From the UHGV virus genome UHGV-0127427: 19,497 nucleotides of DNA; one strand, 5' to 3'. A program made the position numbers and the translations under genes. The notes beneath the pieces are model-generated. The model saw nothing but the letters and a program-made list of their open reading frames with translations. It was not told where the DNA came from and ran no database searches. Each line of letters begins with the position of its first letter. The first letter of the stretch is position 1. Of the stretch, positions 3,042 through 16,381 are shown piece after piece. The DNA is from a virus.

Positions 3042-3300
3042 GTTTAATATTACAATATTATCTGGGAGATAAATGCATCTTATTTCCCAGATGATAACTG
3101 ATGTTTTACATATTCACATGGTGTACAATTATAATACTGCCTAAATAGGCACACAAAGTACGATATGCTACTAAAACCACAACTTTTTGATACTTGTTTG
3201 AGGGGGCGGGTTTGCTTTAGTAATTTAATAGCAAAAGCCATTCGTGTATCAAGTAATAACTTACTGAAGGAGGTGTTTTCTAATAAGAGTTTTTTCTTTA

Positions 3301-3801
3301 TTAAACTCTCACTATGTATAGATAATCAGTTAAGTCTCTTAGTTTCCAATGTTTAGATACATCTGAAAGAAATATGCTGCGTACTTTCCCTGAGAAAGTA
3401 GGCATACCAGACTTAAGAAAAGCTCTAAGGTTGTCAACATCACTAAAAATTGAAAGTAATGAAAAAGTTAAAGCATCCTTAAAATCAGGATGTATATGAT
3501 TCTGGTCACTTATATTATCGATCATCCTGATTAATAAATCAGGATAAGCAAAAGACTTTTTTAGCAAATGTGGGCATTTATCCAGAAGTTGCTTCCCTTG
3601 GTGATTGTGACAAGATAAATAGTTTCTTACAGCACTATCATTAAGTTCGAATTCGATATATTTATCTGAATAGGTTTGTAAGAATTCGCGTTCAGAATGT
3701 TTAAGCAACAGCACATCACCATAATTTAATATTAAGAAATCCTTAAGAAATTGAAAATTTATCGGTTTCTTTATAAGGATGAAGTAACAGACTCCTGACA
3801 T
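3301..3801 (-). CDS. hypothetical protein, orphan gene in the AT-rich island (start ATG 3801 preferred; ORF extends to ATG 3813)
   Basis: 166-170 aa ORF in strongly AT-rich DNA; GGTGG lies 5 nt upstream of ATG 3801; no motif recognised. Confidence 0.4.
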   Translation of the reverse strand: MSGVCYFILIKKPINFQFLKDFLILNYGDVLLLKHSEREFLQTYSDKYIEFELNDSAVRNYLSCHNHQGKQLLDKCPHLLKKSFAYPDLLIRMIDNISDQNHIHPDFKDALTFSLLSIFSDVDNLRAFLKSGMPTFSGKVRSIFLSDVSKHWKLRDLTDYLYIVRV

Positions 3802-7950: not shown

Positions 7951-8023
7951 GATCAAATGATCAAGTGATCACTATTTGACCTGATAAGGTATTGAACTGT
8001 ATGGATTTACAGGTAAATTGATC
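7951..8023. promoter_or_regulatory. GATC (Dam site) cluster in the cre upstream regulatory region
   Basis: Four GATC within 73 bp (7951-7954, 7959-7962, 7967-7970, 8020-8023) between cre and loxP; consistent with the methylation-sensitive cre promoters described for P1. Confidence 0.55.
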
Positions 8024-8042: not shown

Positions 8043-8076
8043 ATAACTTCGTATAATGTATGCTATACGAAGTTAT
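8043..8076 (-). other. loxP: loxP recombination site (34 bp: 13-bp inverted repeats flanking an 8-bp spacer)
   Basis: Exact ATAACTTCGTATA-ATGTATGC-TATACGAAGTTAT; spacer is the reverse complement of GCATACAT, so the site is inverted relative to the plus strand. Confidence 0.97.
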
Positions 8077-8119
8077 CAGGTCCGAAGAGGAGTTTACGTC
8101 CAGCTGCGCACAAAAATCA

Positions 8120-8136
8120 AGAATTATTAGAGCAAT
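8120..8136 (-). promoter_or_regulatory. C1 operator (Op99-type) in immC
   Basis: Minus-strand sense ATTGCTCTAATAATTCT (15/17). Confidence 0.6.
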
Positions 8137-8196
8137 AAATTTTGAGAGAAAAATCCCACTCCACCAGCTAAAAACTGGATTGTTTTTCATAGTTGT

Positions 8197-8223
8197 TTGA
8201 CAATTGCTCTAATAAATTATAGT
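8197..8223 (+). promoter_or_regulatory. Candidate immC promoter with embedded C1 operator (TTGACA - operator - TATAGT)
   Basis: TTGACA 8197-8202, operator ATTGCTCTAATAAATTA 8203-8219 (16/17), TATAGT 8218-8223; upstream of coi-c1 on the same strand. Confidence 0.65.
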
Positions 8224-8457
8224 TTTGCCGCCGTTACGTAATACGACTTTGGATTCACTATTTAATGTGTCTTCAGCGTTGTAGAGCGGCTCAGAAGGAA
8301 ATGAGCAAACAGGGAAACCTTATACAATGGCATTACAGCTATGCATTGCTCATCTTACACACAGCGCAATGTTGTTAGATTACCCCAGCATGGATCATGG
8401 GTGAAACAGTAGGTCAGAGCTTCAGGCTCTGTGTTGTCAATACAGTGAGGCATAATT

Positions 8458-8667
8458 ATGGCTTTCATTCAACCAACCATCGACGACGTTAGACATTGCT
8501 CTAACGCTTTATCTGTAGACCCTGCCGAAACCGACGCTGCCAGCACCATTGCTGAACACTACTCAAAGATATCCAATCAGGACTACCGCATCACCCAAGA
8601 CGACCTGGATGACCTCACTGACACAATCGAATATCTCATGGCAACTAACCAGTTAGCCTCACAATAA
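8458..8667 (+). CDS. coi: Coi, C1 inactivator, 69 aa
   Basis: 69-aa acidic ORF directly upstream of c1 on the same strand (MAFIQPTIDDVRHCSNALSVD...); size and position match P1 Coi; GTGAGG 7 nt upstream of the ATG. Confidence 0.85.
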   Translation: MAFIQPTIDDVRHCSNALSVDPAETDAASTIAEHYSKISNQDYRITQDDLDDLTDTIEYLMATNQLASQ

Positions 8668-8777
8668 ATGCACTAATAAATCTATTATTTTTGTTTGATC
8701 CCTCTATAATATAGGTCAGTAATGACCGGTTTTCTCAACCGGGCGTTATTGACCATGTCAATTCTGGAGGAGGATCA

Positions 8778-9629
8778 ATGATAAATTATGTCTACGGCGA
8801 ACAACTGTACCAGGAGTTCGTCAGCTTCAGGGATCTCTTTCTAAAAAAAGCTGTTGCACGCGCCCAACACGTTGATGCCGCCAGCGACGGTCGTCCTGTT
8901 CGCCCGGTTGTCGTTCTGCCGTTCAAAGAAACGGACAGCATTCAGGCTGAAATTGATAAATGGACTTTAATGGCGCGGGAACTGGAACAGTACCCAGACC
9001 TCAATATCCCAAAGACTATTTTATATCCAGTGCCTAACATCCTTCGCGGTGTACGTAAGGTTACAACTTATCAGACAGAAGCTGTGAACAGCGTCAACAT
9101 GACCGCTGGCCGCATTATTCATCTGATTGATAAGGATATTCGCATCCAAAAAAGCGCGGGGTTCAATGAGCACAGTGCGAAATACATAGAGAACCTGGAA
9201 GCAACAAAAGAGCTAATGAAGCAGTACCCGGAGGATGAAAAATTCCGTATGCGCGTACACGGCTTTAGCGAAACAATGCTGCGCGTCCACTACATTTCCA
9301 GTAGCCCTAACTACAATGATGGTAAATCAGTTAGTTACCATGTGCCACTGTGTGGCGTGTTTATCTGCGATGAAACCCTCCGTGATGGAATCATCATCAA
9401 CGGTGAATTCGAGAAAGCAAAATTTAGCCTTTATGACTCCATAGAACCGATCATCTGCGACCGCTGGCCGCAGGCAAAAATATATCGCCTGGCAGATATT
9501 GAAAATGTAAAAAAACAAATTGCCATCACTCGCGAAGAGAAAAAGGTCAAATCAGCCGCATCAGTTACGCGCAGTCGTAAAACTAAGAAGGGGCAGCCAG
9601 TAAACGACAACCCCGAAAGCGCGCAATAA
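8778..9629 (+). CDS. c1: C1 repressor of lysis, 283 aa
   Basis: 283-aa ORF starting MINYVYGEQLYQEFVSFRDLF behind GGAGGAGG; matches P1 C1 in length and N-terminus as recalled; multiple cognate operators in the window. Confidence 0.95.
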   Translation: MINYVYGEQLYQEFVSFRDLFLKKAVARAQHVDAASDGRPVRPVVVLPFKETDSIQAEIDKWTLMARELEQYPDLNIPKTILYPVPNILRGVRKVTTYQTEAVNSVNMTAGRIIHLIDKDIRIQKSAGFNEHSAKYIENLEATKELMKQYPEDEKFRMRVHGFSETMLRVHYISSSPNYNDGKSVSYHVPLCGVFICDETLRDGIIINGEFEKAKFSLYDSIEPIICDRWPQAKIYRLADIENVKKQIAITREEKKVKSAASVTRSRKTKKGQPVNDNPESAQ

Positions 9630-9632
9630 ATT

Positions 9633-9654
9633 ATGCCCGGCATCAACCGGGCAT
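9633..9654. terminator. hairpin between convergent c1 and the antirepressor-like gene (possible bidirectional terminator)
   Basis: ATGCCCGG-CATCAA-CCGGGCAT, 8-bp stem, 4 nt after the c1 stop; flanks are only moderately T-rich. Confidence 0.45.
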
Positions 9655-9661
9655 TCTTCCA

Positions 9662-10429
9662 TTATTCAGCCGCCACCGGTTTTAACAAGCCAGCATCGAG
9701 CAGTTTACGCGTCAACCACTGTTGTCCTTTCCCCGTTAATTGGGGCGTCAGCCGTATCTGGTAGCCATCTTCATCATCCAGCACCACTTCTTTCACTGTG
9801 AAATATCCGGCGTTTATGTACTGCTGGAACGGCACATTTTTACGCCCGCCGGACGCTATCAGAATGCCGTTCTCCCGTAACCAGGCAAACAGCGCGTTTT
9901 GCTTCAGCCCAACAACCTTTGCAAAATTACCAATCAGGATCCCCTTAGCCACTGATACACGGTCGGCAAAATCGACCTTGGGGGCTGCGGCCACCAGTTG
10001 TTGATTTAGCTGGTGGGCCTTCTGTTCCAGTAGCTGCTTTTGTTCAGCCAGCTCGGCAGCCAGGCGCAAGGCTTCAGGTAGTGTTTGGGGGATTGCGACC
10101 GGTTGCTGTTCTTTTTGCCGGAAGTAGCTGTCTTCCAGTTTTTCAAAGAATGCCCATGCTTCATCTGTGTTTACGATCTTAGACATGCGTGCCGCTCCGC
10201 GTTCGGCCCAAAGAATTACCTGGCTTGTATATTTGCTAACCAGGTGACTAGTAGTCACCAGCCTTTTAAATTCCTTTAATTTTGAACCAGTTAAGAGATA
10301 GTAATGCTTACCTTCTTCAAAGCGATCGGAGTTGCGAGACAAATTTTTACGAATATTAGCTTCATCGGTTCCATAAGCGCAGATAAACATCGCGCTTATC
10401 GACATCCAGATGCGGGTATTCCTTTTCAA
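9662..10429 (-). CDS. phage antirepressor-like protein (ORF6N-type N-terminal region plus KilA-C/ANT-type C-terminal region); start uncertain (TTG 10429 or ATG 10405)
   Basis: N-terminal half AYGTDEANIRKNLSRNSDRFEEGKHYYLLTGSKLKEF...ILWAERGAARMSK and C-terminal half DRVSVAKGILIGNFAKVVGLKQNALFAWLRENGILIASGGRKNVPFQQYINAGYF are typical of phage antirepressors; sits where P1 has pacB/pacA/lpa. Confidence 0.65.
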   Translation of the reverse strand: MKRNTRIWMSISAMFICAYGTDEANIRKNLSRNSDRFEEGKHYYLLTGSKLKEFKRLVTTSHLVSKYTSQVILWAERGAARMSKIVNTDEAWAFFEKLEDSYFRQKEQQPVAIPQTLPEALRLAAELAEQKQLLEQKAHQLNQQLVAAAPKVDFADRVSVAKGILIGNFAKVVGLKQNALFAWLRENGILIASGGRKNVPFQQYINAGYFTVKEVVLDDEDGYQIRLTPQLTGKGQQWLTRKLLDAGLLKPVAAE

Positions 10430-10556
10430 GAATTGCTGCGAGTTCTTTCGCTGATAGAAGAGATTTAGTGCGGATCATGTAATCCGCAATCTCGTACGAT
10501 GTTATTCGTGAGTGATTTATTTCCATGAAGTGGCGTCCCTGCCAGTTAAGTAACAT
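10362..10556 (-). CDS. hypothetical 64-aa protein overlapping the 5' end of the antirepressor-like gene in another frame
   Basis: ATG 10556 preceded by AGGTGA at 4-nt spacing; ends within the first codons of the antirepressor ORF; could be a real leader gene or the product of a frameshift. Confidence 0.35.
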   Translation of the reverse strand: MLLNWQGRHFMEINHSRITSYEIADYMIRTKSLLSAKELAAILEKEYPHLDVDKRDVYLRLWNR

Positions 10557-10626
10557 CCTGTCACCTACTGATTAGCCCATGTCAACTAATCAACGTCGAA
10601 TATAATACCCTCGATTAAAGAAATAG

Positions 10627-10643
10627 CAATACATTAGAGCAAT
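10627..10643 (-). promoter_or_regulatory. C1 operator-like site upstream of the 64-aa/antirepressor unit
   Basis: Minus-strand sense ATTGCTCTAATGTATTG (14/17) beginning 1 nt after the pdcB-like stop; TTGCTA-16 bp-TATTAT promoter-like hexamers overlap it. Confidence 0.55.
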
Positions 10644-10644
10644 T

Positions 10645-11691
10645 TTATCTAACGCTCGACGAATGACTTGTGATAGCGCCGACTCCAAGCGCGTAATCAA
10701 AGAACAATCGTTGATGCATCGCCAGCCTACCGTGCGTCTTCTCCCAATTATCGCGGTCACGCTCAATATCACGCTGGCATGACTGGCACAGAGGAATAGC
10801 ATAAATGTCATGCGCGCATAATCGACTATAACGAACGATATAAGGCGTAATGTGAGCGCCAGCTCCCGCCGCTCCACACCCACAGCATGGACGGGAAGCA
10901 ACAAAGTCCATGTACTCAGGTAATTTTAGCGATTGCAGTTTTGGTATTTTGAAATGCGCCATACCTGGGTCGGAGTCAACATCCACAGGGCATACTTTTG
11001 CACGCATCGGCGCGGCGCGTTCTTCCATCATCTGAACATATGCTGTAGCGCGATCGTCATACGGGCGAATATCCGCCTCTTTCAGTGGTCCGCTATCCTG
11101 CGGAGTAGCCTTCATCTTATTTATTATTGATATGCGGCAGACTTCTTCCGGCATCAGGTGCATCATGTTGCGCATGAAAGCCCACCAGCACAGCTCCTGA
11201 ATACTTAAATCATGGCTATTTGAAAGGCCCATTTCCTGACGGGCGACATCCAGTATCCAGTTAACGCGATTATTGTGCAGCGTTTCTTTCAGCTCATTAA
11301 AACCACGCATCCGGTAATGGTTATCGTGATGCCAGCACAACAACACCGCGCTATTGTCTCGTTCAGCGTGGACAATATGGTTGTCACACCAACTACGATC
11401 TGCGGCCTGGCATTGACCCTCTTTCCTACGCAACCACGCCACCAGCGCGTCAATTCCACCAATACGGCGAAACAGTTCATCGCTGTTAAAAAACGGCTGC
11501 AACGCCTCATTTGTTGCCATGGTTTGCTCGGTAACAACGAGGCCGTCTTCCATGTGCTCGATTAACTCACGCGGCACCGGCTCCATAATAAATTTACGGC
11601 CAGCCTCCACCAGCTTTCTGACCTCCTGATCCACTTTGAACGTGGCGAGGCCAAGCTCTTTCTGTACAAAGGGAGTAATTACGGCTTTCAC
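10645..11691 (-). CDS. pdcB: PdcB-like protein (post-doc gene B position), 348 aa, GTG start, Cys-rich C-terminal region
   Basis: GTG 11691 preceded by AAGGTG at 4 nt; C-terminal CCGCG...C..C..C..C cluster suggests metal binding; assignment by position downstream of doc. Confidence 0.5.
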
Positions 11692-11718
11692 ATCACACCT
11701 TTAATCACTGATTGGGCT

Positions 11719-11898
11719 TTATCTGCTGCCCGACATTATCTGTTTAAGCACAACCATTTCCTGACGGCATAACACAGCAATAGCGGTCCTGGCACCAATT
11801 TGCTTACTAACCAGGTATTGCTTTATCTTGCGGCGACTCACGCCATCAAGAAGCATCTTTAACGCTTCACGGGACAATTTGTTGTATTTGCGTGCCAT
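11719..11898 (-). CDS. pdcA: PdcA-like small protein, 59 aa from ATG 11898
   Basis: ATG 11898 lies 4 nt after the doc stop; the track start at 11919 would overlap doc. Positional assignment. Confidence 0.45.
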   Translation of the reverse strand: MARKYNKLSREALKMLLDGVSRRKIKQYLVSKQIGARTAIAVLCRQEMVVLKQIMSGSR

Positions 11899-11902
11899 TA
11901 AT

Positions 11903-12283
11903 CTACTCCGCAGAACCATACAATCTACGTAACGTGGCGGCGACAGAAGATACAGATATCTCGCCAGTCGCAGCGCCTACAGTAAGGTCTGCCAGTTCAG
12001 GTGAATCAAATACCTGCACCCCGTTACGGCGTAGAAATAGCAGCGCACTGTTTAGCGCGGTACGCTTATTGGCATCATTGAATATATGCCCTCTCGCTGT
12101 AGCCACCAGGTAGGTGGCGGAGACTTCGAAAAGGTCGGTGATCTCTTCGTAGGCAACTCTGGCCTGAACTCTCCCGATAATGGCCTCTGCCCTACCCGGA
12201 TCTGACATTCCCGGCAGGCCGCCGTAGCGGTTTATATTCGCATCATGAAGCGCAATAAGTTCTTCCGGTGATATATGCCTCAT
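11903..12283 (-). CDS. doc: Doc toxin (Fic-fold kinase) of the phd-doc addiction module, 126 aa
   Basis: 126-aa [50 protein letters not shown]...; start overlaps the phd stop by 1 nt (TAATG), as in P1. Confidence 0.95.
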
Positions 12284-12504
12284 TATCGGTTAACCAGTTC
12301 CTTGTTGGTGGAGTCCAGGGTGTCAAACAGGGATGCAAATTCAGCATCCAGCGCCGCTTTTTTGTAGGCTTCGAAAGTAGCCTTGCTGACAATTACTGCT
12401 GGCTCACGGCCTCTGCGGGTGATTTCAACCTCTTCCCCGGCTTCAACATTGTTGAGCACTTCAGAAAGGTTGCCGCGCGCGGTACGGAAGTTAATGGATT
12501 GCAT
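12283..12504 (-). CDS. phd: Phd antitoxin, 73 aa
   Basis: [73 protein letters not shown] from ATG 12504 (two codons inside the track's start); matches P1 Phd. Confidence 0.95.
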
Positions 12505-12684
12505 AAACACCTCGTGTACTCGTTATGTGTACACAATTATAAACTTCACAGGCATAAAGCACCAGCACTTTGCAGCTTAAATCACCGGACAATCATCAAA
12601 TTCCCCACTTCGGGCATCATTAATGACATGAGTGATCACACCAAACACAGCATTACTCCCCGTGCATCCATCGTCATCCACTGG

Positions 12685-12966
12685 TCACGCCTCTTTCTTC
12701 CCGGTGCTTAAATCCTCCAGGTGCTGGCGCGGATACTTTCGGTATCTCTTTATGCGATATTCACCCTCCATAGCGCACACAAGCAGCGAACCATCAACTG
12801 GAGTAAGCGAAGAATCAACCACCAGCAAAGCACCCTGCAATATTCCCTCACGGTGATGGCTATCAGCTGCCCGCATGAAGTAGGTTGCTGATGGATGTCT
12901 AATTATCTGCTGATCAAGAGAAATTCGGCTTTCAACATAATCCGCCGCAGGAGAAGGGAAACCCAT
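12685..12966 (-). CDS. humD: HumD, UmuD'-like translesion synthesis accessory protein, 93 aa
   Basis: ORF upstream of phd-doc on the same strand with a UmuD'-like C-terminal region; GAGGT before the ATG; LexA box 19 bp upstream. Confidence 0.8.
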   Translation of the reverse strand: MGFPSPAADYVESRISLDQQIIRHPSATYFMRAADSHHREGILQGALLVVDSSLTPVDGSLLVCAMEGEYRIKRYRKYPRQHLEDLSTGKKEA

Positions 12967-13140: not shown

Positions 13141-13725
13141 ATGCCTAATCGCATTCCTCTCGATCCTGTATTGCCCAAAAATTTTGACTGCACTCCTAAC
13201 GAGAAACGCTCTAAAGCTCAGCTGGACGCCTAGTGGGACCATCCATATGGGGTTACACAACCTGACGGGAAAATTGTAGTTTATTGTCTGAATGGTGGGG
13301 CGTGGGACCGTCCATCCGTGCTTTGTTTGGCAGATAACTATGATGAAGCCTGTGAACTTGCCGAAAGACAGCAGGCAAGCTGGGTAAAAACACGGTCTGA
13401 ACCGACATTCATGTTTTCAAAAGAACCGCCATTTATACTGGCGAGGATGCCGCAGCGACCGGATCATCAACAAGAAATTGTTGCTGAATTTTCCTCAAGG
13501 GATGAGATGAATCTCTTCTCATTAAAGCAGGAAGAAAGGGATCGCGTCGAAGTGTCTCCAACTCTCGACCACAACCGGATGAACCTGGCCCAGCTCGCCT
13601 GGTACAGCAAAGAATTAGAGATGTCTATTGCCCGGCTTGAAAACGAAAAAGCCGCTATCCAAGTCCAGCACGAAGTAGTTCTGAACCGGATTAGAGAAAT
13701 GCAAAACGATAACAGGGGATTTTGA
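13141..13725 (+). pseudogene. hypothetical gene interrupted by an in-frame amber codon (30 codons, TAG at 13231-13233, then 164 more codons in the same frame)
   Basis: ATG 13141 has a good RBS (AAGGA, 8-nt spacing). The frame has a single TAG and continues open to 13725; the only in-frame restart (GTG 13318) lacks an RBS. Confidence 0.45.
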
Positions 13726-14082
13726 ATGGCTAAAATCGAGTACCATCGCGATCGCGGTAATTACCTGGAAATATACGATCATGAATCTCTTAACGATATC
13801 AACGATGCGTTATATGAATACTGTGAAAAAACGAGCATCACAGATGCACCTGATGCATTTGTCGAGCTGCCGGTATATCTCCGCGACATCTATGCAATAC
13901 GAACACCGCCCGTATCGGTGATTCACATTGGCTATGTCCGCCTGTCCATCGAAGAAGATGAAGATCGTTATATCGTGCGCCACTATACATTGGACAGAAA
14001 AGAACTTCCTAATGAATGGAACATGAGTAATTTCTACAACGGTGAATATGGCTTAAAATCCGCTAATAATTTACGGTCATAA
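13726..14082 (+). CDS. hypothetical protein, 118 aa
   Basis: ATG overlaps the upstream stop (TGAATG) with AGGGGA 9 nt upstream; acidic protein, no recognised motif. Confidence 0.5.
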   Translation: MAKIEYHRDRGNYLEIYDHESLNDINDALYEYCEKTSITDAPDAFVELPVYLRDIYAIRTPPVSVIHIGYVRLSIEEDEDRYIVRHYTLDRKELPNEWNMSNFYNGEYGLKSANNLRS

Positions 14083-14618
14083 TCTATACAGGCATGTATA
14101 ACAACAACGAGCCTATTAGCTGTCAACAACGTTATTTCCTCAAATAAGAAAAAGCAGAAAACAAATTGTTTAAGGTCACAAATTGTGGCCTTGATGGAGG
14201 AGGGAGGCTTATTGGCTATGGCTAAAAATCAAATTAGACACTTCATGTTGCTGTAGCTCATCAAGATCCGAGGCCACAAAACCTTTTCCGAAAAACTTCA
14301 CAAGTAACTCACTAGCCGCATCATTGTCACCTATTACACGAAAGTCATACGGCAACGTCGCAAGTTGACGATGTAATCCTGCTGAGAAAGTCGAATCTAA
14401 CAGCGCCCAGAATTCCCACCGCAGGATAATACTCGCCTCTTAATACTGTATATATGTTGTTACGATATGTTTTTCTGTCTCTAAAAAAAGATGTTTGAAG
14501 GGGATAAAAATATACAATTCCAACAAACGTTATTTTTAACAATTTTTTTCTTTGCGTTGACTTTCCCGGACACCTTGTCTGACCGAAGGTGCGCGAAAGC
14601 CACTTTTTCCTTCCTGAG

Positions 14619-14639
14619 TTATCCACAAAGTTATGCACT
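14619..14639 (+). promoter_or_regulatory. two tandem DnaA-box-like 9-mers
   Basis: TTATCCACA (14619-14627, perfect consensus) and TTATGCACT (14631-14639, 8/9) in direct orientation, 3 bp apart, inside an AT-rich non-coding stretch. Confidence 0.4.
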
Positions 14640-14927
14640 TGCAAGAGGGCCATTTTCTACATATTGTGGTGGCTAACAGATGAAATGAATGTAGATTAAT
14701 TGAAGATAAGGAGAAAATTTGAGATGCAATCATGACGTTAATAGATAGGGTCTGCATTACAGACCCCACCCGCATCAAGGAATTAGCCGTTCCCTGATGT
14801 TTTTCCGAAAACATGTGCCGTAAGCTCACGTTAACGACTTTCATTCACCGAATCCAACTATATAGGGGTTGGGTTTCTACGTCAACGTGAGCAAGTGCAC
14901 CTTTACATTTGACAAGGAACCACCTGA

Positions 14928-15065
14928 ATGAACGCTTTTTTTCAGTTCCTGAGTGCATTTTTAGATGCGCCTATTATTAGCCAGATTCTGGCTATTATCC
15001 TCATCATCGTTTTGATTTTGCTTTTAAGGTCAGTAAAAAATGGAATTATGCACTGGCTTACTTAA
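14928..15065 (+). CDS. small hydrophobic peptide, 45 aa (single predicted transmembrane helix)
   Basis: MNAFFQFLSAFLDAPIISQILAIILIIVLILLLRSVKNGIMHWLT; AAGGAA 8 nt upstream of the ATG; a perfect 9-bp inverted repeat overlaps the stop codon. Confidence 0.3.
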   Translation: MNAFFQFLSAFLDAPIISQILAIILIIVLILLLRSVKNGIMHWLT

Positions 15066-15140
15066 TGTTTCAGTGAAACATTAAAATCTCCTTGATGTGG
15101 AAACAATCATTTTCTGTATGTGCTGGTGGGCACCTGTAGT

Positions 15141-15503
15141 TCAGCTTTCGTTGGCATTTAACTTCGTCTTTGCTTTCTCCACCAGCAACTTCCAGATGCC
15201 TATTTCATTAGCAGCCGCCTTGATGGCGGCATAAAAAGCATCTTGCTGATCGTAACGCTGGATCTGTTTTTTCAGTTTTGCCTCCACCAATTTAATTTCA
15301 TTACGTGCTTTCTGAAGCCGCATCACCGCCCGGTTACGTCTGTTCTTGTATAGCGTGTTAATCTCTGACAATTGCTTTAATTTACCAGCCTGACTGCGGA
15401 TTATCGCCTCCCTGGCTTCTGCCGTGCGTCTCATCTGATCTCTTAAGAGTTCACCGTTTTCGATAATTCTTTCAAGGTGTTTGATGTGATCTGCAACTCT
15501 CAT
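15141..15503 (-). CDS. hypothetical coiled-coil protein, 120 aa
   Basis: ORF whose start overlaps the upstream gene's stop (ATGA); heptad-rich, charged sequence. Confidence 0.5.
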   Translation of the reverse strand: MRVADHIKHLERIIENGELLRDQMRRTAEAREAIIRSQAGKLKQLSEINTLYKNRRNRAVMRLQKARNEIKLVEAKLKKQIQRYDQQDAFYAAIKAAANEIGIWKLLVEKAKTKLNANES

Positions 15504-16381
15504 ACTTCACCCTCGCTTGTATCACCAGCGTCCACCAACGACAATAAAGCCCTGGCCATCTTATGAACCAACAGTGCATCAATAATGCCAAGCGTATGCC
15601 CCGGCTTAATGTTTAATGCTGCCTCAAGATGACACCTTTCCAGACCGCTTTTCTCGGCTTGTTTATGATGATATGGCGTAATAACGTCGCCCAAAACACG
15701 GCTAATTCTTTCTCGTAATTGCTGGGTGCCAGCACACTTGATCGCTGTATCGTGGAGACGGTTAACCAGTTCGCGATAAACATGCGGCTTAATGCGGATA
15801 CGTTCACCGGTGACGCCCTTTCCTGGCGTAGGCACCGAACTATCCGGAATATCCGGATAGTTGCCAGCCAGTCTACGCAAAACAGCCTTAATTGCATCAA
15901 TACGGTCATCATCAACTTTTTCTACAATATTGGAATTTAAATACTTCGAAGCCTTGCTATGCCAATCGCTGGTTTTAGGGTCTTGTCCATCCATCAAACG
16001 CCAAGCTTCAGCGATTAACTCATAGCCAGTAACAGTGGCTTCCTGCGCATCACCAATCAGTTGTGTGATCTCTCTTTCAAGCATGCTTAGAGCGTTAGGC
16101 ATTGGTTTTTCTTCCGGTACTACTGGAACGGGGGGAGCGGCGTAGACCTCAATAATTCCATTATCAATAGGCCATTCTCCATCCTTGAGGTAGTCACTTG
16201 TGCCGTCAACTTGCTGTTCTGCAATGTGGAATGCACCTATTGGTTTTGCTTCCAGTGATGCCAGAGCAATTCGTGCCAGTTCTTCCGCTTCTTCTGCTGG
16301 CAGTACAACGTTGCTACCAGGTCCGTATGTTTCGCGCCACTGCTTGATTGTCAGTAGTCGCTCTTTGGTAATAGTGGTCAT
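15500..16381 (-). CDS. hypothetical protein, 293 aa
   Basis: ATG 16381 preceded by AGGAAA at 7 nt; no motif recognised. Confidence 0.55.
   Translation of the reverse strand: MTTITKERLLTIKQWRETYGPGSNVVLPAEEAEELARIALASLEAKPIGAFHIAEQQVDGTSDYLKDGEWPIDNGIIEVYAAPPVPVVPEEKPMPNALSMLEREITQLIGDAQEATVTGYELIAEAWRLMDGQDPKTSDWHSKASKYLNSNIVEKVDDDRIDAIKAVLRRLAGNYPDIPDSSVPTPGKGVTGERIRIKPHVYRELVNRLHDTAIKCAGTQQLRERISRVLGDVITPYHHKQAEKSGLERCHLEAALNIKPGHTLGIIDALLVHKMARALLSLVDAGDTSEGEV

What the first reader, a model, noticed from the sequence alone, without database searches (positions are those of the whole stretch)
14083..14927. ~850-bp non-coding stretch with tandem DnaA boxes, near-palindromes and a strongly RBS-equipped 12-codon mini-ORF
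No convincing CDS on either strand. The stretch contains a perfect DnaA box TTATCCACA plus TTATGCACT 3 bp apart (14619-14639) next to a very AT-rich segment (14470-14560), a near-palindrome AGGTCACAAATTGTGGCCT (14173-14191), a 6-bp inverted repeat CACCTT...AAGGTG (14574-14594), and a mini-ORF MAKNQIRHFMLL (14218-14256) behind GGAGGAGGGAGG. These are features of an origin or a regulatory hub (DnaA-regulated promoter, leader peptide) rather than coding DNA.
Basis: seen in the sequence. Interest (0 to 1): 0.5.

Follow-up and report, generated by a model that had tools for sequence, protein, structure and literature searches.

The report
Captured nrdA promoter amid gene remnants
This "non-coding" stretch of a P1/P7-type phage-plasmid is not a replication origin: its left half is the wreckage of two genes, its DnaA boxes are a copy of the E. 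coli nrdAB promoter already annotated in phage P1, and its right half is a strongly conserved leader with an antisense promoter that probably controls an overlooked 45-residue membrane-peptide gene lying just outside the interval.

Summary
The origin reading fails: there are no iterons, only one GATC, and no rep gene, and IS elements insert here freely. The stretch is a mosaic:
- 14209-14409(-) is the last 66 codons of a Toprim/primase gene. The "mini-ORF" and its "RBS" are that remnant's antisense and 3' flank.
- 14417-14470 is a dead umuD-like start with a half-deleted LexA box.
- 14529-14657 is about 95% identical to the nrdA upstream region of every E. coli chromosome. It includes both DnaA boxes and the -35, and it points rightwards. 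P1 records have annotated this as an "nrdA-like promoter" since 1993.

New here: across relatives only about 78% identical, the DnaA-box/-35 core (95%) and a 190-nt block at 14705-14892 (90%) are far better conserved than their flanks (45-64%) or the adjacent +strand 45-codon hydrophobic ORF at 14928-15065 (76%, always intact). The block holds a strong -strand promoter and a stably folded antisense RNA. P1/P7 "upfM/upfN/upf91.x" frames are broken in relatives.

Best reading (inferred, untested): a DnaA-tuned, host-derived promoter drives a structured leader and a small membrane peptide, opposed by a cis-antisense RNA. This is the architecture of a type I toxin-antitoxin system. Interest is modest.

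The parts
14083..14208 (.). Spacer between the upf93.6 stop and the Toprim remnant. From 14156 (14128 in other relatives) it is the 3' flank of the Toprim gene as found in PhiR41_1-type phage-plasmids. It contains the near-palindrome 14173-14191 (probably an old weak terminator hairpin on the - strand) and the purine run 14196-14207.
   Evidence: 90% identity to PhiR41_1, CMS-2020a and plasmids annotated 'toprim domain-containing protein'.
14209..14409 (-). Pseudogene. This is the 3'-terminal 66 codons plus the stop of a 174-aa Toprim/primase-like gene; the first ~108 codons and the start are missing.
   Evidence: tblastn gives 88% identity to residues 109-174, E=3e-34. PHROG DNA-primase families phrog_849 and phrog_17952 match. 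IS903 (P7) and ISVsa5 (pEC21Z048-103K) are inserted here, with 9-bp target duplications at 14337-14345 and 14275-14283.
14417..14470 (-). Dead 5' end of a umuD/humD-like gene with its SD and LexA operator. A 13-bp deletion removes the start codon (junction 14425|14426). An 11-bp deletion removes half of the SOS box (junction 14450|14451).
   Evidence: Alignment with pF404-2 and p2013C-4991, which have the intact ATG and CTGTATATACATACAG. No intact CTGT-N8-ACAG lies in the stretch.
14450..14528 (.). AT-rich tract (GC about 0.23). It is homologous to the region upstream of umuD-like genes in pF404-2-type phage-plasmids and is not an unwinding element.
   Evidence: (76% identity to pF404-2). An indel of 17 alignment columns (a 17-bp insertion in relatives such as SJ46) within the window's own class falls in 14410-14528.
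14529..14657 (+). Captured E. coli nrdAB promoter upstream region, in the nrdA sense orientation. It includes the inverted repeat 14571-14576/14586-14591 and both DnaA boxes.
   Evidence: About 95% identity to all 5426 E. coli genomes at ypaB/nrdA upstream. Annotated in P1 as 'nrdA-like promoter / dnaA box'.
14619..14667 (+). Promoter core: DnaA box 1 (14619-14627), DnaA box 2 (14631-14639), -35 TTGCAA (14639-14644), a 17-bp spacer, and -10 TATTGT (14662-14667). The predicted +strand start is at about 14672-14675.
   Evidence: Identity to E. coli over 14616-14657 is 98% (window), 95% (P1) and 93% (class C), against 93/68/60% for the part just upstream. In pF404-2-type copies the boxes and both hexamers are kept while the spacer is scrambled.
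14705..14892 (.). Highly conserved non-coding block. On the + strand it is the leader of the 45-codon ORF, with SD AAGGAG at 14708-14713 and a start-stop mini-frame ATG..TGA at 14724-14735. On the - strand it holds a promoter and a structured RNA.
   Evidence: 90% identity to the ~78% clade, against 45-64% for the non-coding flanks (Fisher p=1e-13) and 76% for the ORF (p=6e-4).
14857..14885 (-). -strand sigma-70 promoter TTGACG-17-TATAGT (10 of 12 consensus positions), the same as P1's predicted 'PupfN'. It is flanked by the 13-bp inverted repeat 14824-14836/14880-14892.
   Evidence: invariant in all classes apart from a single spacer position that differs in one class (14867 in P1, 14868 in class C).
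14735..14851 (-). Candidate cis-antisense RNA of about 105-117 nt with three hairpins. The last hairpin (14748-14766) is followed by UAUCUAUU, a weak terminator.
   Evidence: MFE is -43.2 kcal/mol with z=-4.5 and 0 of 200 shuffles as stable, against -29.1 and z=-2.8 for the + strand. There is one compensatory pair (14751/14763, U-A to C-G), and three substitutions are confined to the loop of helix 2.
14928..15065 (+). Unannotated (in P1, P7 and RefSeq) 45-codon ORF encoding MNAFFQFLSAFLDAPIISQILAIILIIVLILLLRSVKNGIMHWLT, a single-TM hydrophobic peptide, with SD AAGGAA at 14914-14919.
   Evidence: Intact and 138 nt long in all 25 distinct sequences from three clades. dN/dS is 0.41 and the joint permutation p is about 0.05. 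Both changes between P1 and the second P1-like class (D) are synonymous. GRAVY is 1.56 with a TM segment at residues 15-33. SJ46 annotates it as a hypothetical protein.
15062..15084 (+). Perfect 11-bp-arm hairpin overlapping the ORF stop; a likely 3' structure of the +strand mRNA.
   Evidence: I14. In the diverged clade it is maintained only on the + strand RNA (-5.5 against -2.9 kcal/mol) through a compensatory pair and G.U pairs.

Best explanation
The stretch is a recombination scar field in 'variable region 8' of a P1/P7/SJ46-type phage-plasmid, joined to one functional module.

Shown:
- The left ~450 bp is dead DNA: the tail of a Toprim/primase gene, then the decapitated start and half-deleted LexA operator of a umuD-like gene, with its AT-rich upstream DNA.
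- Next comes a 129-bp copy of the E. coli nrdAB promoter upstream region, with its two DnaA boxes and -35, oriented rightwards. This is the 'nrdA-like promoter' already annotated in P1.

Inferred:
- This promoter is still used. DnaA bound at the two boxes tunes RNA polymerase at the TTGCAA/TATTGT promoter as it does at nrdAB (activation at low DnaA-ATP or with DnaA-ADP, repression at high DnaA-ATP). Output would then follow the host's replication status.
- The transcript would start near 14673 and carry a ~255-nt conserved, structured leader. It would encode the 45-residue hydrophobic peptide at 14928-15065 and end near the 15062-15084 hairpin, giving an mRNA of about 400 nt.
- Inside the leader, a strong constitutive -strand promoter (14885-14857) fires towards the first promoter. 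It makes a stably folded ~110-nt RNA fully complementary to the leader, 77-193 nt upstream of the peptide's AUG.
- By pairing and by convergent transcription, this RNA would hold peptide synthesis down.

In layout this works like a type I toxin-antitoxin pair. It is closest to tisB/istR-1, with DnaA in the place of LexA. Whether the peptide is toxic is unknown.
For: Mosaic and decay.

Host origin and orientation of the DnaA-box segment. Prior annotation in P1.

Selection on the promoter core:
- 95% (40 of 42) identity between the window and the ~78% clade, against 55% for the adjacent host-derived DNA (p=8e-7).
- The 26-mer is exact in 59 of 65 loci and always lies 309-327 bp upstream of the ORF on the same strand.
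- In pF404-2-type relatives the boxes, -35 and -10 are kept while the 17-bp spacer is scrambled.
- The hexamer score (8 of 12) equals that of the native nrdA promoter as read in L006.

Conserved block.

-strand promoter and RNA fold.

ORF45 is probably real:
-.
- The SD is maintained with a different sequence in the diverged clade (AAGGAA against GAGGAT).
- Indels occur only outside the ORF.

Competing annotated frames are broken in relatives, and one is merely the E. coli YpaB frame carried over with the captured DNA.

The module travels with different neighbours: pmgV in P1-types, a type I R-M operon in pEc2-51408, and Ead/Ea22 genes in L085.

No C1 operator or LexA box lies in it.

nrdAB promoter behaviour comes from PMC8203912 and PMC11853086.

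Non-stranded P1vir RNA-seq shows RNA over the block and a trough between it and hot.
Against: - There is no direct transcript, translation or toxicity data for either strand.
- The antisense RNA's terminator is weak, and the terminator scan did not flag it.
- Structural support rests on one compensatory event.
- The coding signal for ORF45 is only moderate (dN/dS 0.41, p about 0.05).
- Natural variants with a truncated or frameshifted C-terminus exist.
- The peptide matches no known toxin or other family: Pfam, PHROGs, NCBIfam and PADLOC give nothing, an exhaustive phmmer finds only its own variants, and there is no BLASTP match to an Ldr sequence written from memory.
- No Rfam family matches.
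- Within the window's own class, diversity is too low to show ongoing selection.
- The SD of ORF45 is not obviously sequestered in the predicted leader fold.
- P1 hot, which lies downstream of the -strand promoter in P1, is reported to be expressed in lysogens (PMC7556043, citing Chikova & Schaaper 2007). That promoter may therefore serve hot instead.
Confidence: 0.55

Rival explanations
1. The conserved block is the lysogenic promoter and 5' leader of the -strand operon hot(-humD). The DnaA boxes act on that transcript, as a roadblock or as a regulator of a replication-related gene. The +strand promoter and ORF45 would be incidental. In this window hot has been lost, so the element would be an orphaned leader.
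For: In P1 and in the ~78% clade a theta-subunit homologue lies 130-142 bp beyond the boxes on the - strand. P1 hot is expressed in lysogens, which needs a non-late promoter (PMC7556043, second hand). The -strand RNA's terminator is weak.
Against: - The -35, the spacer length and the -10 of the +strand promoter are conserved along with the boxes, which a roadblock would not require.
- The SD plus start-stop at 14708-14735 and the ORF45 frame, SD and 3' hairpin are conserved on the + strand.
- The module persists where hot is absent: this window's class, found in 93 plasmids.
- hot has its own late promoter.
- Gene-level RNA-seq shows a trough between the block and hot. That evidence is weak, because the data are non-stranded and the features are short and overlapping.
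Confidence: 0.2
2. Nothing in the stretch is functional today. The DnaA-box segment and the block are relics. Their similarity among elements would reflect recent exchange between phage-plasmids and gene conversion against the host nrdA locus, and ORF45 would be a chance open frame.
For: The region is hypervariable and recombinogenic (PMC9603915). IS elements insert nearby. The overlapping P1 features are dispensable for lytic growth (PMC10695390). Within-class diversity is uniformly low. The window's host-like part is 93-98% identical to E. coli, which suggests recent conversion. ORF45 is damaged in some isolates.
Against: In the same pairwise comparison the block (90%) and the core (95%) stand out sharply from immediately adjacent DNA (45-64%), so recent wholesale exchange cannot explain them. 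The substitutions avoid stems and hexamers. ORF45 has no indel or stop in 25 distinct sequences, while its flanks have several.
Confidence: 0.15
3. The stretch is a DnaA-dependent replication origin or a DnaA-titrating or reactivating site.
For: There are two adjacent DnaA boxes and a 23%-GC tract about 70-170 bp away.
Against: - The boxes and their surroundings are a copy of a host promoter, not of oriC or oriR.
- There are only two boxes, in direct orientation and abutting a -35.
- There are no iterons, tandem repeats or 13-mer-like repeats.
- GATC is depleted.
- There is no initiator gene nearby.
- The AT tract is homologous to umuD upstream DNA and carries an indel of 17 alignment columns between isolates.
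- P1-type elements replicate from oriR and oriL elsewhere (established knowledge; Lobocka et al. 2004, not readable here).
Confidence: 0.02
4. The small -strand ORFs annotated in P1 and P7 (upfM, upfN, upfO, upf91.3-91.7) are real genes, so the stretch is coding after all.
For: They are deposited annotations. upfM has a PHROG family of its own (phrog_31823).
Against: - upfM is frameshifted and has stops in the ~78% clade.
- upfN/upf91.4 loses its start codon in P1-types and has stops in several members of the window's own class and in the diverged clade.
- upf91.6/91.7 and the 102-codon ORF are the E. coli YpaB frame running antisense through the nrdA promoter.
- RefSeq calls none of them.
- The PHROG consists of near-identical P1-type entries.
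Confidence: 0.03

Closest known systems
E. coli nrdAB promoter (two high-affinity DnaA boxes abutting the -35; regulated by DnaA, Fis, IciA and NrdR)
   Same: Window 14529-14657 is about 95% identical to it in the same orientation. It has identical DnaA boxes, -35 and box-to-promoter geometry, and the -10 sits at the same 17-bp spacing.
   Different: Homology stops at the -10. The host's NrdR-box/-10 sequence, leader and nrdA are replaced by phage DNA. The upstream Fis-site region is absent here; homology begins at 14529. The promoter drives a small phage ORF, not ribonucleotide reductase.
P1 'nrdA-like promoter / dnaA box' (M95666 476..531; NC_005856 86399..86454), lying inside the annotated upfN/upfO
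   Same: It is the same element at the same place relative to pmgV. The window and P1 are 98% identical over the core and the block.
   Different: In this P7/SJ46-type window the host-like segment is longer and fresher (129 bp at 93-98% identity, against about 69 bp recognisable in P1). The DNA to its left is gene wreckage rather than upfO-hot-lxr.
Type I toxin-antitoxin systems, especially tisB/istR-1 (stress-regulated toxin promoter; antisense pairs about 100 nt upstream of the toxin RBS) and hok/sok (~400-nt mRNA; antisense promoter inside the leader)
   Same: A small single-TM hydrophobic ORF; a long, conserved, structured 5' leader; and a strong opposing promoter inside the leader that gives a structured RNA complementary to the leader 77-193 nt upstream of the AUG. 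Predicted mRNA length is about 400 nt. The module is plasmid-borne and mobile between contexts.
   Different: There is no sequence or Rfam/Pfam relationship to any known family. Toxicity, the RNAs and their interaction are untested. The regulator would be DnaA rather than LexA. No mok-like overlapping reading frame is conserved.
P1 oriR / E. coli oriC-type DnaA-dependent origins
   Same: DnaA boxes are present, with an AT-rich tract nearby.
   Different: There are two boxes only, no iterons, no GATC cluster, no 13-mers and no adjacent rep gene. The sequence is homologous to a promoter instead.

Membership tests
Derivative of the E. coli nrdAB promoter | Sequence homology to the yfaL-nrdA intergenic region, in the nrdA orientation | tested here: met
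   129 bp at about 95% identity to all 5426 complete E. coli genomes; orientation taken from L006.
Derivative of the E. coli nrdAB promoter | Two DnaA boxes 3 bp apart immediately upstream of, and overlapping by 1 nt, a TTGCAA -35, with a -10 placed 17 bp downstream | tested here: met
   The -10 is TATTGT here and TATCTT in E. coli.
Derivative of the E. coli nrdAB promoter | Downstream NrdR-box/-10 region and upstream Fis-site region retained | tested here: not met
   Homology ends at 14657 and begins at 14529. pF404-2-type copies keep ACACTATCTT. The exact box positions are recalled from the literature and were not verified here.
Derivative of the E. coli nrdAB promoter | DnaA binding and DnaA-dependent transcription | not testable with these tools
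   Needs a footprint or EMSA and reporter assays. The boxes are identical to the experimentally bound host boxes (PMC8203912).
Type I toxin-antitoxin system | Small (under 60 aa) hydrophobic membrane peptide ORF under coding constraint | tested here: met
   45 aa, GRAVY 1.56, TM segment at residues 15-33. Intact in 25 of 25 distinct sequences. dN/dS 0.41, p about 0.05; the strength of this signal is moderate.
Type I toxin-antitoxin system | Antisense RNA gene with its own promoter, overlapping the toxin mRNA | tested here: inconclusive
   There is a 10-of-12 promoter and a stable three-hairpin fold with z=-4.5. However, the terminator is weak, there is only one compensatory event, and there are no transcript data. 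The available RNA-seq is non-stranded.
Type I toxin-antitoxin system | Peptide is toxic when over-expressed, and the antisense RNA neutralises it | not testable with these tools
   No experiment is available. Damaged natural alleles exist, which is compatible with either reading.
Type I toxin-antitoxin system | Homology to a described family (Hok, Ldr, TisB, Ibs, ShoB, Zor, Fst and others; Rfam antitoxin RNAs) | tested here: not met
   It therefore cannot be filed as a member of any named family, only as working in a similar way.
DnaA-dependent replication origin (oriC / P1 oriR type) | A cluster of several DnaA boxes with an AT-rich unwinding element of repeated 13-mers, plus GATC clustering | tested here: not met
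   Two boxes only; no repeats; one GATC.
DnaA-dependent replication origin (oriC / P1 oriR type) | Iterons and an adjacent initiator (rep) gene | tested here: not met
DnaA-dependent replication origin (oriC / P1 oriR type) | Autonomous replication of the fragment | not testable with these tools
   A cloning test is required.
Toprim/primase-like phage gene (phrog_849) | A complete ORF with the N-terminal part and the Toprim glutamate | tested here: not met
   Only residues 109-174 are encoded and no start is present. It is a pseudogene remnant.

The most novel reading that the evidence does not exclude
P1-family and related phage-plasmids carry a previously unrecognised type I toxin-antitoxin-like module. 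Its toxin promoter was captured from the host nrdAB gene and is still read by DnaA. Synthesis of a 45-residue membrane peptide would then be coupled to the host's replication-initiator status (DnaA-ATP/ADP, replication stress), while a cis-antisense RNA from the former 'PupfN' promoter keeps it silent. It sits next to the SOS-controlled humD/lxr genes and the theta homologue hot, which would make this corner of the plasmid a replication-stress response island. The P1 genes upfM, upfN and upfO would be annotation artefacts of this module.
Probability: 0.3. Interest if true: 0.65.

Novelty: new member of a known kind. Interest (0 to 1): 0.35.

Why it matters
The DnaA boxes are a known, already annotated P1 feature, and half of the stretch is decayed DNA.

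Two points have some value.
1. The comparison works as a natural mutagenesis experiment on a captured host promoter. Across lineages the host-derived flanks have drifted to 60-68% identity with E. coli, while the 42-bp unit of DnaA boxes, -35 and spacer stays at 93-98%. This argues that phage-plasmids use DnaA as a transcriptional input.
2. Three long-standing P1 'genes' (upfM, upfN, upfO) appear to be artefacts. They lie over a conserved non-coding leader with an antisense promoter, and over an unannotated small membrane-peptide gene on the other strand.

If that module proves to be a DnaA-controlled toxin-antitoxin pair, it would add a maintenance or stress module to one of the best-studied phages, and a new regulatory input for type I systems. 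The claim is directly testable with simple reporters and Northern blots.

Tried and rejected
- Rfam at gathering thresholds over the whole window and at E<=10 over the stretch gave nothing credible. The best hit was BsrG at 15 bits, E=0.59. No tRNAs were found.
- Iteron, tandem-repeat and GATC searches aimed at an origin were negative.
- P1 C1-operator and LexA-box scans found none in the stretch.
- Pfam, PHROGs, NCBIfam and PADLOC gave nothing for the 45-aa peptide and the other small ORFs, apart from a PHROG made of P1 upfM entries.
- A word-indexed search and an exhaustive phmmer search found only damaged variants of the same peptide.
- A resemblance to Ldr toxins that I recalled from memory was not supported by BLASTP.
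- Two scans of GTDB representative genomes, one with the peptide and one with an invariant 20-mer of the block, found no copies. The module seems confined to enterobacterial P1-like and rep_cluster_488 phage-plasmids.
- Within-class diversity was too low to test ongoing selection.
- The 21-codon and 25-codon +strand ORFs in the block stay open, but their changes are not codon-position biased. I treat them as non-coding.
- The P1 genome paper (Lobocka 2004) and both hot papers (Chikova & Schaaper 2005, 2007) are not held, so what they say about the boxes and the hot promoters could not be checked.
- Two P1vir RNA-seq papers say nothing about this region in the text. One supplementary table gives non-stranded gene-level values only.
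Full report
IDENTITY OF THE WINDOW. Window 13700-15200 is 98.7% identical to phage P7, Salmonella phage SJ46 and other Punavirus records. P1 itself shares only 14589-15200. The window is the reverse complement of the P1 map: pmgT, pmgU and pmgV lie on the - strand at 15141-16381, and doc, phd and humD lie at 11903-12966. A survey of P1-like phage-plasmids lists pmgT-humD as one of eight hypervariable regions (PMC9603915). [quoted passage not shown]

THE OBSERVATION. Only the 6-bp inverted repeat is displaced: it lies at 14571-14576 and 14586-14591. The AT-rich tract has GC 0.23. A lone DnaA-box consensus match is not unusual in this window (3 found, 2.17 expected), so the significance of the boxes comes from homology rather than from counting.

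LEFT HALF: WRECKAGE.
- Window 14209-14409(-) encodes residues 109-174 and the stop codon of a 174-aa protein found intact upstream of umuD in phage PhiR41_1 and in many ~100-110-kb plasmids. Identity is 88% and E=3e-34. That protein is a Toprim/DNA-primase-family protein (phrog_849, E=1e-53; RefSeq name 'toprim domain-containing protein'). The first ~108 codons and any start codon are absent here.
The GGAGGAGGGAGG run lies just 3' of the remnant's stop codon. The near-palindrome lies in its conserved 3' flank.
- Immediately upstream on the - strand, 14417-14470 aligns with the start of the umuD-like gene of plasmids pF404-2 and p2013C-4991. In the window, a 13-bp deletion removes the ATG and an 11-bp deletion removes half of the LexA box, which is CTGTATATACATACAG in those plasmids. 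No intact SOS box remains in the stretch.
- The AT-rich tract continues this homology (76-87% identity) and carries an indel of 17 alignment columns within the window's own class (SJ46 carries a 17-bp insertion).
- IS903 in P7 and ISVsa5 in pEC21Z048-103K are both inserted in the Toprim remnant, with 9-bp duplications at 14337-14345 and 14275-14283.
- RefSeq annotates nothing across the whole stretch.

THE DnaA BOXES: A CAPTURED HOST PROMOTER, ALREADY KNOWN.
- Window 14529-14657 matches every one of 5426 complete E. coli genomes at about 95% identity, in the yfaL-nrdA intergenic region and in the nrdA sense orientation.
- The match covers the CACCTT/AAGGTG repeat, both DnaA boxes and the TTGCAA -35. 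It fades at the -10, which nevertheless sits at the same 17-bp spacing (TATTGT here, TATCTT in E. coli).
- GenBank M95666 (1993) annotates this as 'nrdA-like promoter' with a 'dnaA box'. The P1 genome record notes 94% identity to the E. coli region with two predicted DnaA boxes.
- The 102-codon -strand ORF at 14345-14653, and P7's upf91.6 and upf91.7, are simply the E. coli hypothetical YpaB frame, which runs antisense through the nrdA promoter (83% identity over 40 residues).
- Reviews describe DnaA acting at these boxes to activate nrdAB at low DnaA-ATP or with DnaA-ADP, and to repress it at high DnaA-ATP. Induction occurs when replication elongation is inhibited (PMC8203912, PMC11853086).

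IS THE CAPTURED PROMOTER STILL USED? I collected 86 related loci from phage, plasmid, viral-contig and metagenome collections. They fall into three clades over 14560-15145: the window's class, the P1 class (about 94% identical) and a clade about 78% identical found in rep_cluster_488 and other plasmids.
- Identity to E. coli over the host-derived DNA upstream of the boxes (14529-14615) is 93% in the window, 68% in P1 and 60% in the diverged clade. Over 14616-14657 (boxes, -35 and spacer) it is 98%, 95% and 93%.
- Between the window and the diverged clade, the core is 95% identical and the upstream part 55% (Fisher p=8e-7).
- In pF404-2-type plasmids, which share only this promoter region, two isolates keep the boxes, the -35 and the -10 while the 17-bp spacer between them is scrambled.
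- The right-hand junction at the -10 is identical in all classes, so there was one capture event.
- These patterns are those of a promoter under selection. The simple promoter scan does not list it because it scores 8 of 12, but the native nrdA promoter, which depends on activators, has the same score.

THE CONSERVED BLOCK AND THE OVERLOOKED ORF.
- Against the diverged clade, 14705-14892 is 90% identical, while the non-coding DNA on either side is 45-64% identical (p=1e-13).
- The +strand 45-codon ORF at 14928-15065 is 76% identical (block against ORF, p=6e-4).
- The ORF is intact and exactly 138 nt long in all 25 distinct sequences. Its SD is maintained with a different sequence (AAGGAA against GAGGAT). 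Indels fall only outside it. dN/dS is 0.41, and a permutation test that combines 'no stop' with the BLOSUM score gives p of about 0.05. The two changes separating the two P1-like classes are both synonymous.
- The ORF encodes a strongly hydrophobic single-TM peptide (GRAVY 1.56). SJ46 annotates it as a hypothetical protein; P1, P7 and RefSeq do not annotate it.
- The annotated -strand frames fare badly. upfM is frameshifted in the diverged clade. upfN/upf91.4 loses its ATG in P1-types and carries stops in several sequences, some of them in the window's own class.
- The peptide has no detectable relatives beyond its own variants and matches no family.

THE ANTISENSE ELEMENT.
- Inside the block, the - strand carries TTGACG-17-TATAGT at 14885-14857 (10 of 12 consensus positions; P1's predicted 'PupfN'). 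It is invariant across clades and flanked by a 13-bp inverted repeat.
- RNA starting near 14850 and running to about 14735 folds into three hairpins at -43.2 kcal/mol, with z=-4.5 and 0 of 200 shuffles as stable. The same interval on the + strand gives -29.1 kcal/mol and z=-2.8.
- Across clades, 96% of the pair cells are standard pairs. One pair is compensated (14751/14763, U-A to C-G). Three substitutions fall in the loop of helix 2 while its 10-bp stem is unchanged. Several G.U pairs exist only on the - strand.
- This is suggestive rather than statistically strong. The putative terminator (hairpin 14766-14748 followed by UAUCUAUU) is weak.
- On the + strand, the part of the block outside the antisense RNA holds a conserved AAGGAG followed by ATG-CAA-TCA-TGA (ATG-TAA in the diverged clade). 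The hairpin after the ORF stop is preserved only as +strand RNA. Both observations argue that a +strand transcript matters.

MECHANISM PROPOSED (INFERRED). A DnaA-modulated promoter taken from nrdAB drives a ~400-nt mRNA with a structured leader and a 45-residue membrane peptide. A convergent constitutive promoter inside the leader makes a complementary ~110-nt RNA that represses it. This architecture matches type I toxin-antitoxin systems. It is closest to tisB/istR-1, where the antisense RNA acts about 100 nt upstream of the toxin RBS and the toxin promoter is stress-regulated. It also resembles hok/sok in mRNA size and in having the antisense promoter inside the leader. Membership in any named family fails on homology, and toxicity is untested. 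The module keeps company with SOS and replication genes (humD, lxr, hot) and moves between contexts: pmgV, a type I R-M operon, or Ead/Ea22 genes on its right.

RIVALS. The strongest rival is that the -strand promoter and the block are the lysogenic promoter and leader of hot.
- In favour: hot follows the boxes in P1 and in the diverged clade, and P1 hot is expressed in lysogens (PMC7556043, second hand).
- Against: the conservation of +strand promoter hexamers and +strand translation signals, the persistence of the module in this window's class where hot is gone, and a trough in RNA abundance between the block and hot. In the non-stranded P1vir RNA-seq table the values at 10 min are upfN 4.9, upfO 1.5 and hot 6.3. 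Counting artefacts for short overlapping features make this last point weak.

A pure-relic reading is contradicted by the sharp local conservation contrasts. The origin reading fails every sequence test available.

VERDICT. The 'origin / leader peptide' interpretation is rejected, and the 'DnaA-regulated promoter' interpretation is retained but is already known for P1. The added value is the dissection of the scar field, evidence that the captured promoter core is under selection, and a testable candidate for a small-peptide and antisense module that current P1 annotation hides under spurious ORFs.

Noticed in passing
window 12685-12687 (within humD, 12577-12966, - strand): humD carries an in-frame TGA at codon 94, where P7 has TTA. 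None of 50 related loci with the same preceding 30-mer has this stop. It is therefore a private nonsense mutation or a sequencing error in this element.
   Followed up: yes
window 9629-10373 (context 8060-11750): Relative to P1, the segment P1 90174-93231 is missing. That segment holds the 3' two-thirds of the late activator gene lpa, all of pacA with the pac site, and all of pacB. It is replaced by 745 bp carrying a 255-codon ORF (9662-10429, -) with ORF6N and KilAC/ANT antirepressor domains. lpa is cut to 64 codons (10362-10556). The element therefore looks unable to activate late genes or package DNA.
   Followed up: partly
window 14275-14283 and 14337-14345: Two different insertion sequences (ISVsa5 in pEC21Z048-103K and IS903 in P7) have landed within 70 bp of each other in the Toprim remnant, each with a 9-bp target duplication. 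This is a small insertion hot spot in dispensable DNA.
   Followed up: yes
L007 (pF404-2) 3228-3790; L010 2615-3200: In pF404-2-type phage-plasmids the nrdA-like promoter is followed after about 70 nt by a strong bidirectional terminator (AAAAAGCCCAGTTGACTAGGCTGGGCTTTTT). Next come two copies of CC(A/G)TAAGTATCTGGCGACT. Then comes a 27-codon hydrophobic ORF (M[V/L]NLLFKIVPPMFAIIEAIIEYVNQRP) with an SD and its own terminator. Between two isolates, 4 of its 6 changes are synonymous and the start switches between ATG and GTG. This may be a second small-peptide or sRNA module built on the same captured promoter.
   Followed up: partly
L084 1-804 (metagenome contig ERZ507319 NODE-107): This contig carries at least 330 bp of E. 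coli nrdA-upstream sequence (100% identical over the compared part). It is joined at the same -10 junction to P1-type block and ORF45 DNA. It is either a lineage with a much longer host capture or conversion tract, or an assembly chimera through the shared 70-130-bp repeat.
   Followed up: partly
L004, L007, L008, L010, L011 (rep_cluster_488 phage-plasmids), left of the umuD-like gene: These ~106-112-kb phage-plasmids carry full-length host-like metG (methionyl-tRNA synthetase) and apbC/mrp genes next to the umuD-like gene. This is another apparent capture of chromosomal DNA in the same neighbourhood.
   Followed up: no
L006 583-726 (E. coli ypaB) and window 14345-14653 (-): The E. coli 'protein YpaB' ORF lies antisense across the nrdA promoter and its DnaA boxes. 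Its frame survives in the phage copy only as far as the DNA homology runs (83% identity over 40 aa). This raises doubt that ypaB is a real gene.
   Followed up: partly
L085 3001-3207; L086 3001-3150; proteins P0001-P0004: Natural alleles of the 45-codon ORF have altered C-termini. One has a recombination breakpoint at codon 31 that joins it to Ead/Ea22-type DNA, and others have frameshifts after codon ~34-37. The N-terminal part and the TM segment are always kept.
   Followed up: partly
window 7951-8012: Three GATC sites at exact 8-bp spacing (7951, 7959, 7967) lie about 30 bp from a perfect CTGT-N8-ACAG LexA-box-like site (7997-8012). This is just beyond the end of the c1-coi-lox homology with P1, which maps to window 8060-9628. 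It was not examined further.
   Followed up: no
P1 NC_005856 86228-86830 (window equivalent about 14230-14829): In a non-stranded P1vir infection RNA-seq table, the log values at 10 and 30 min are upfN 4.9/8.2, upfO 1.5/5.3 and hot 6.3/9.6. This is a local trough over the DnaA-box/upfO interval between two transcribed segments (PMC8201110, Table S1).
   Followed up: partly
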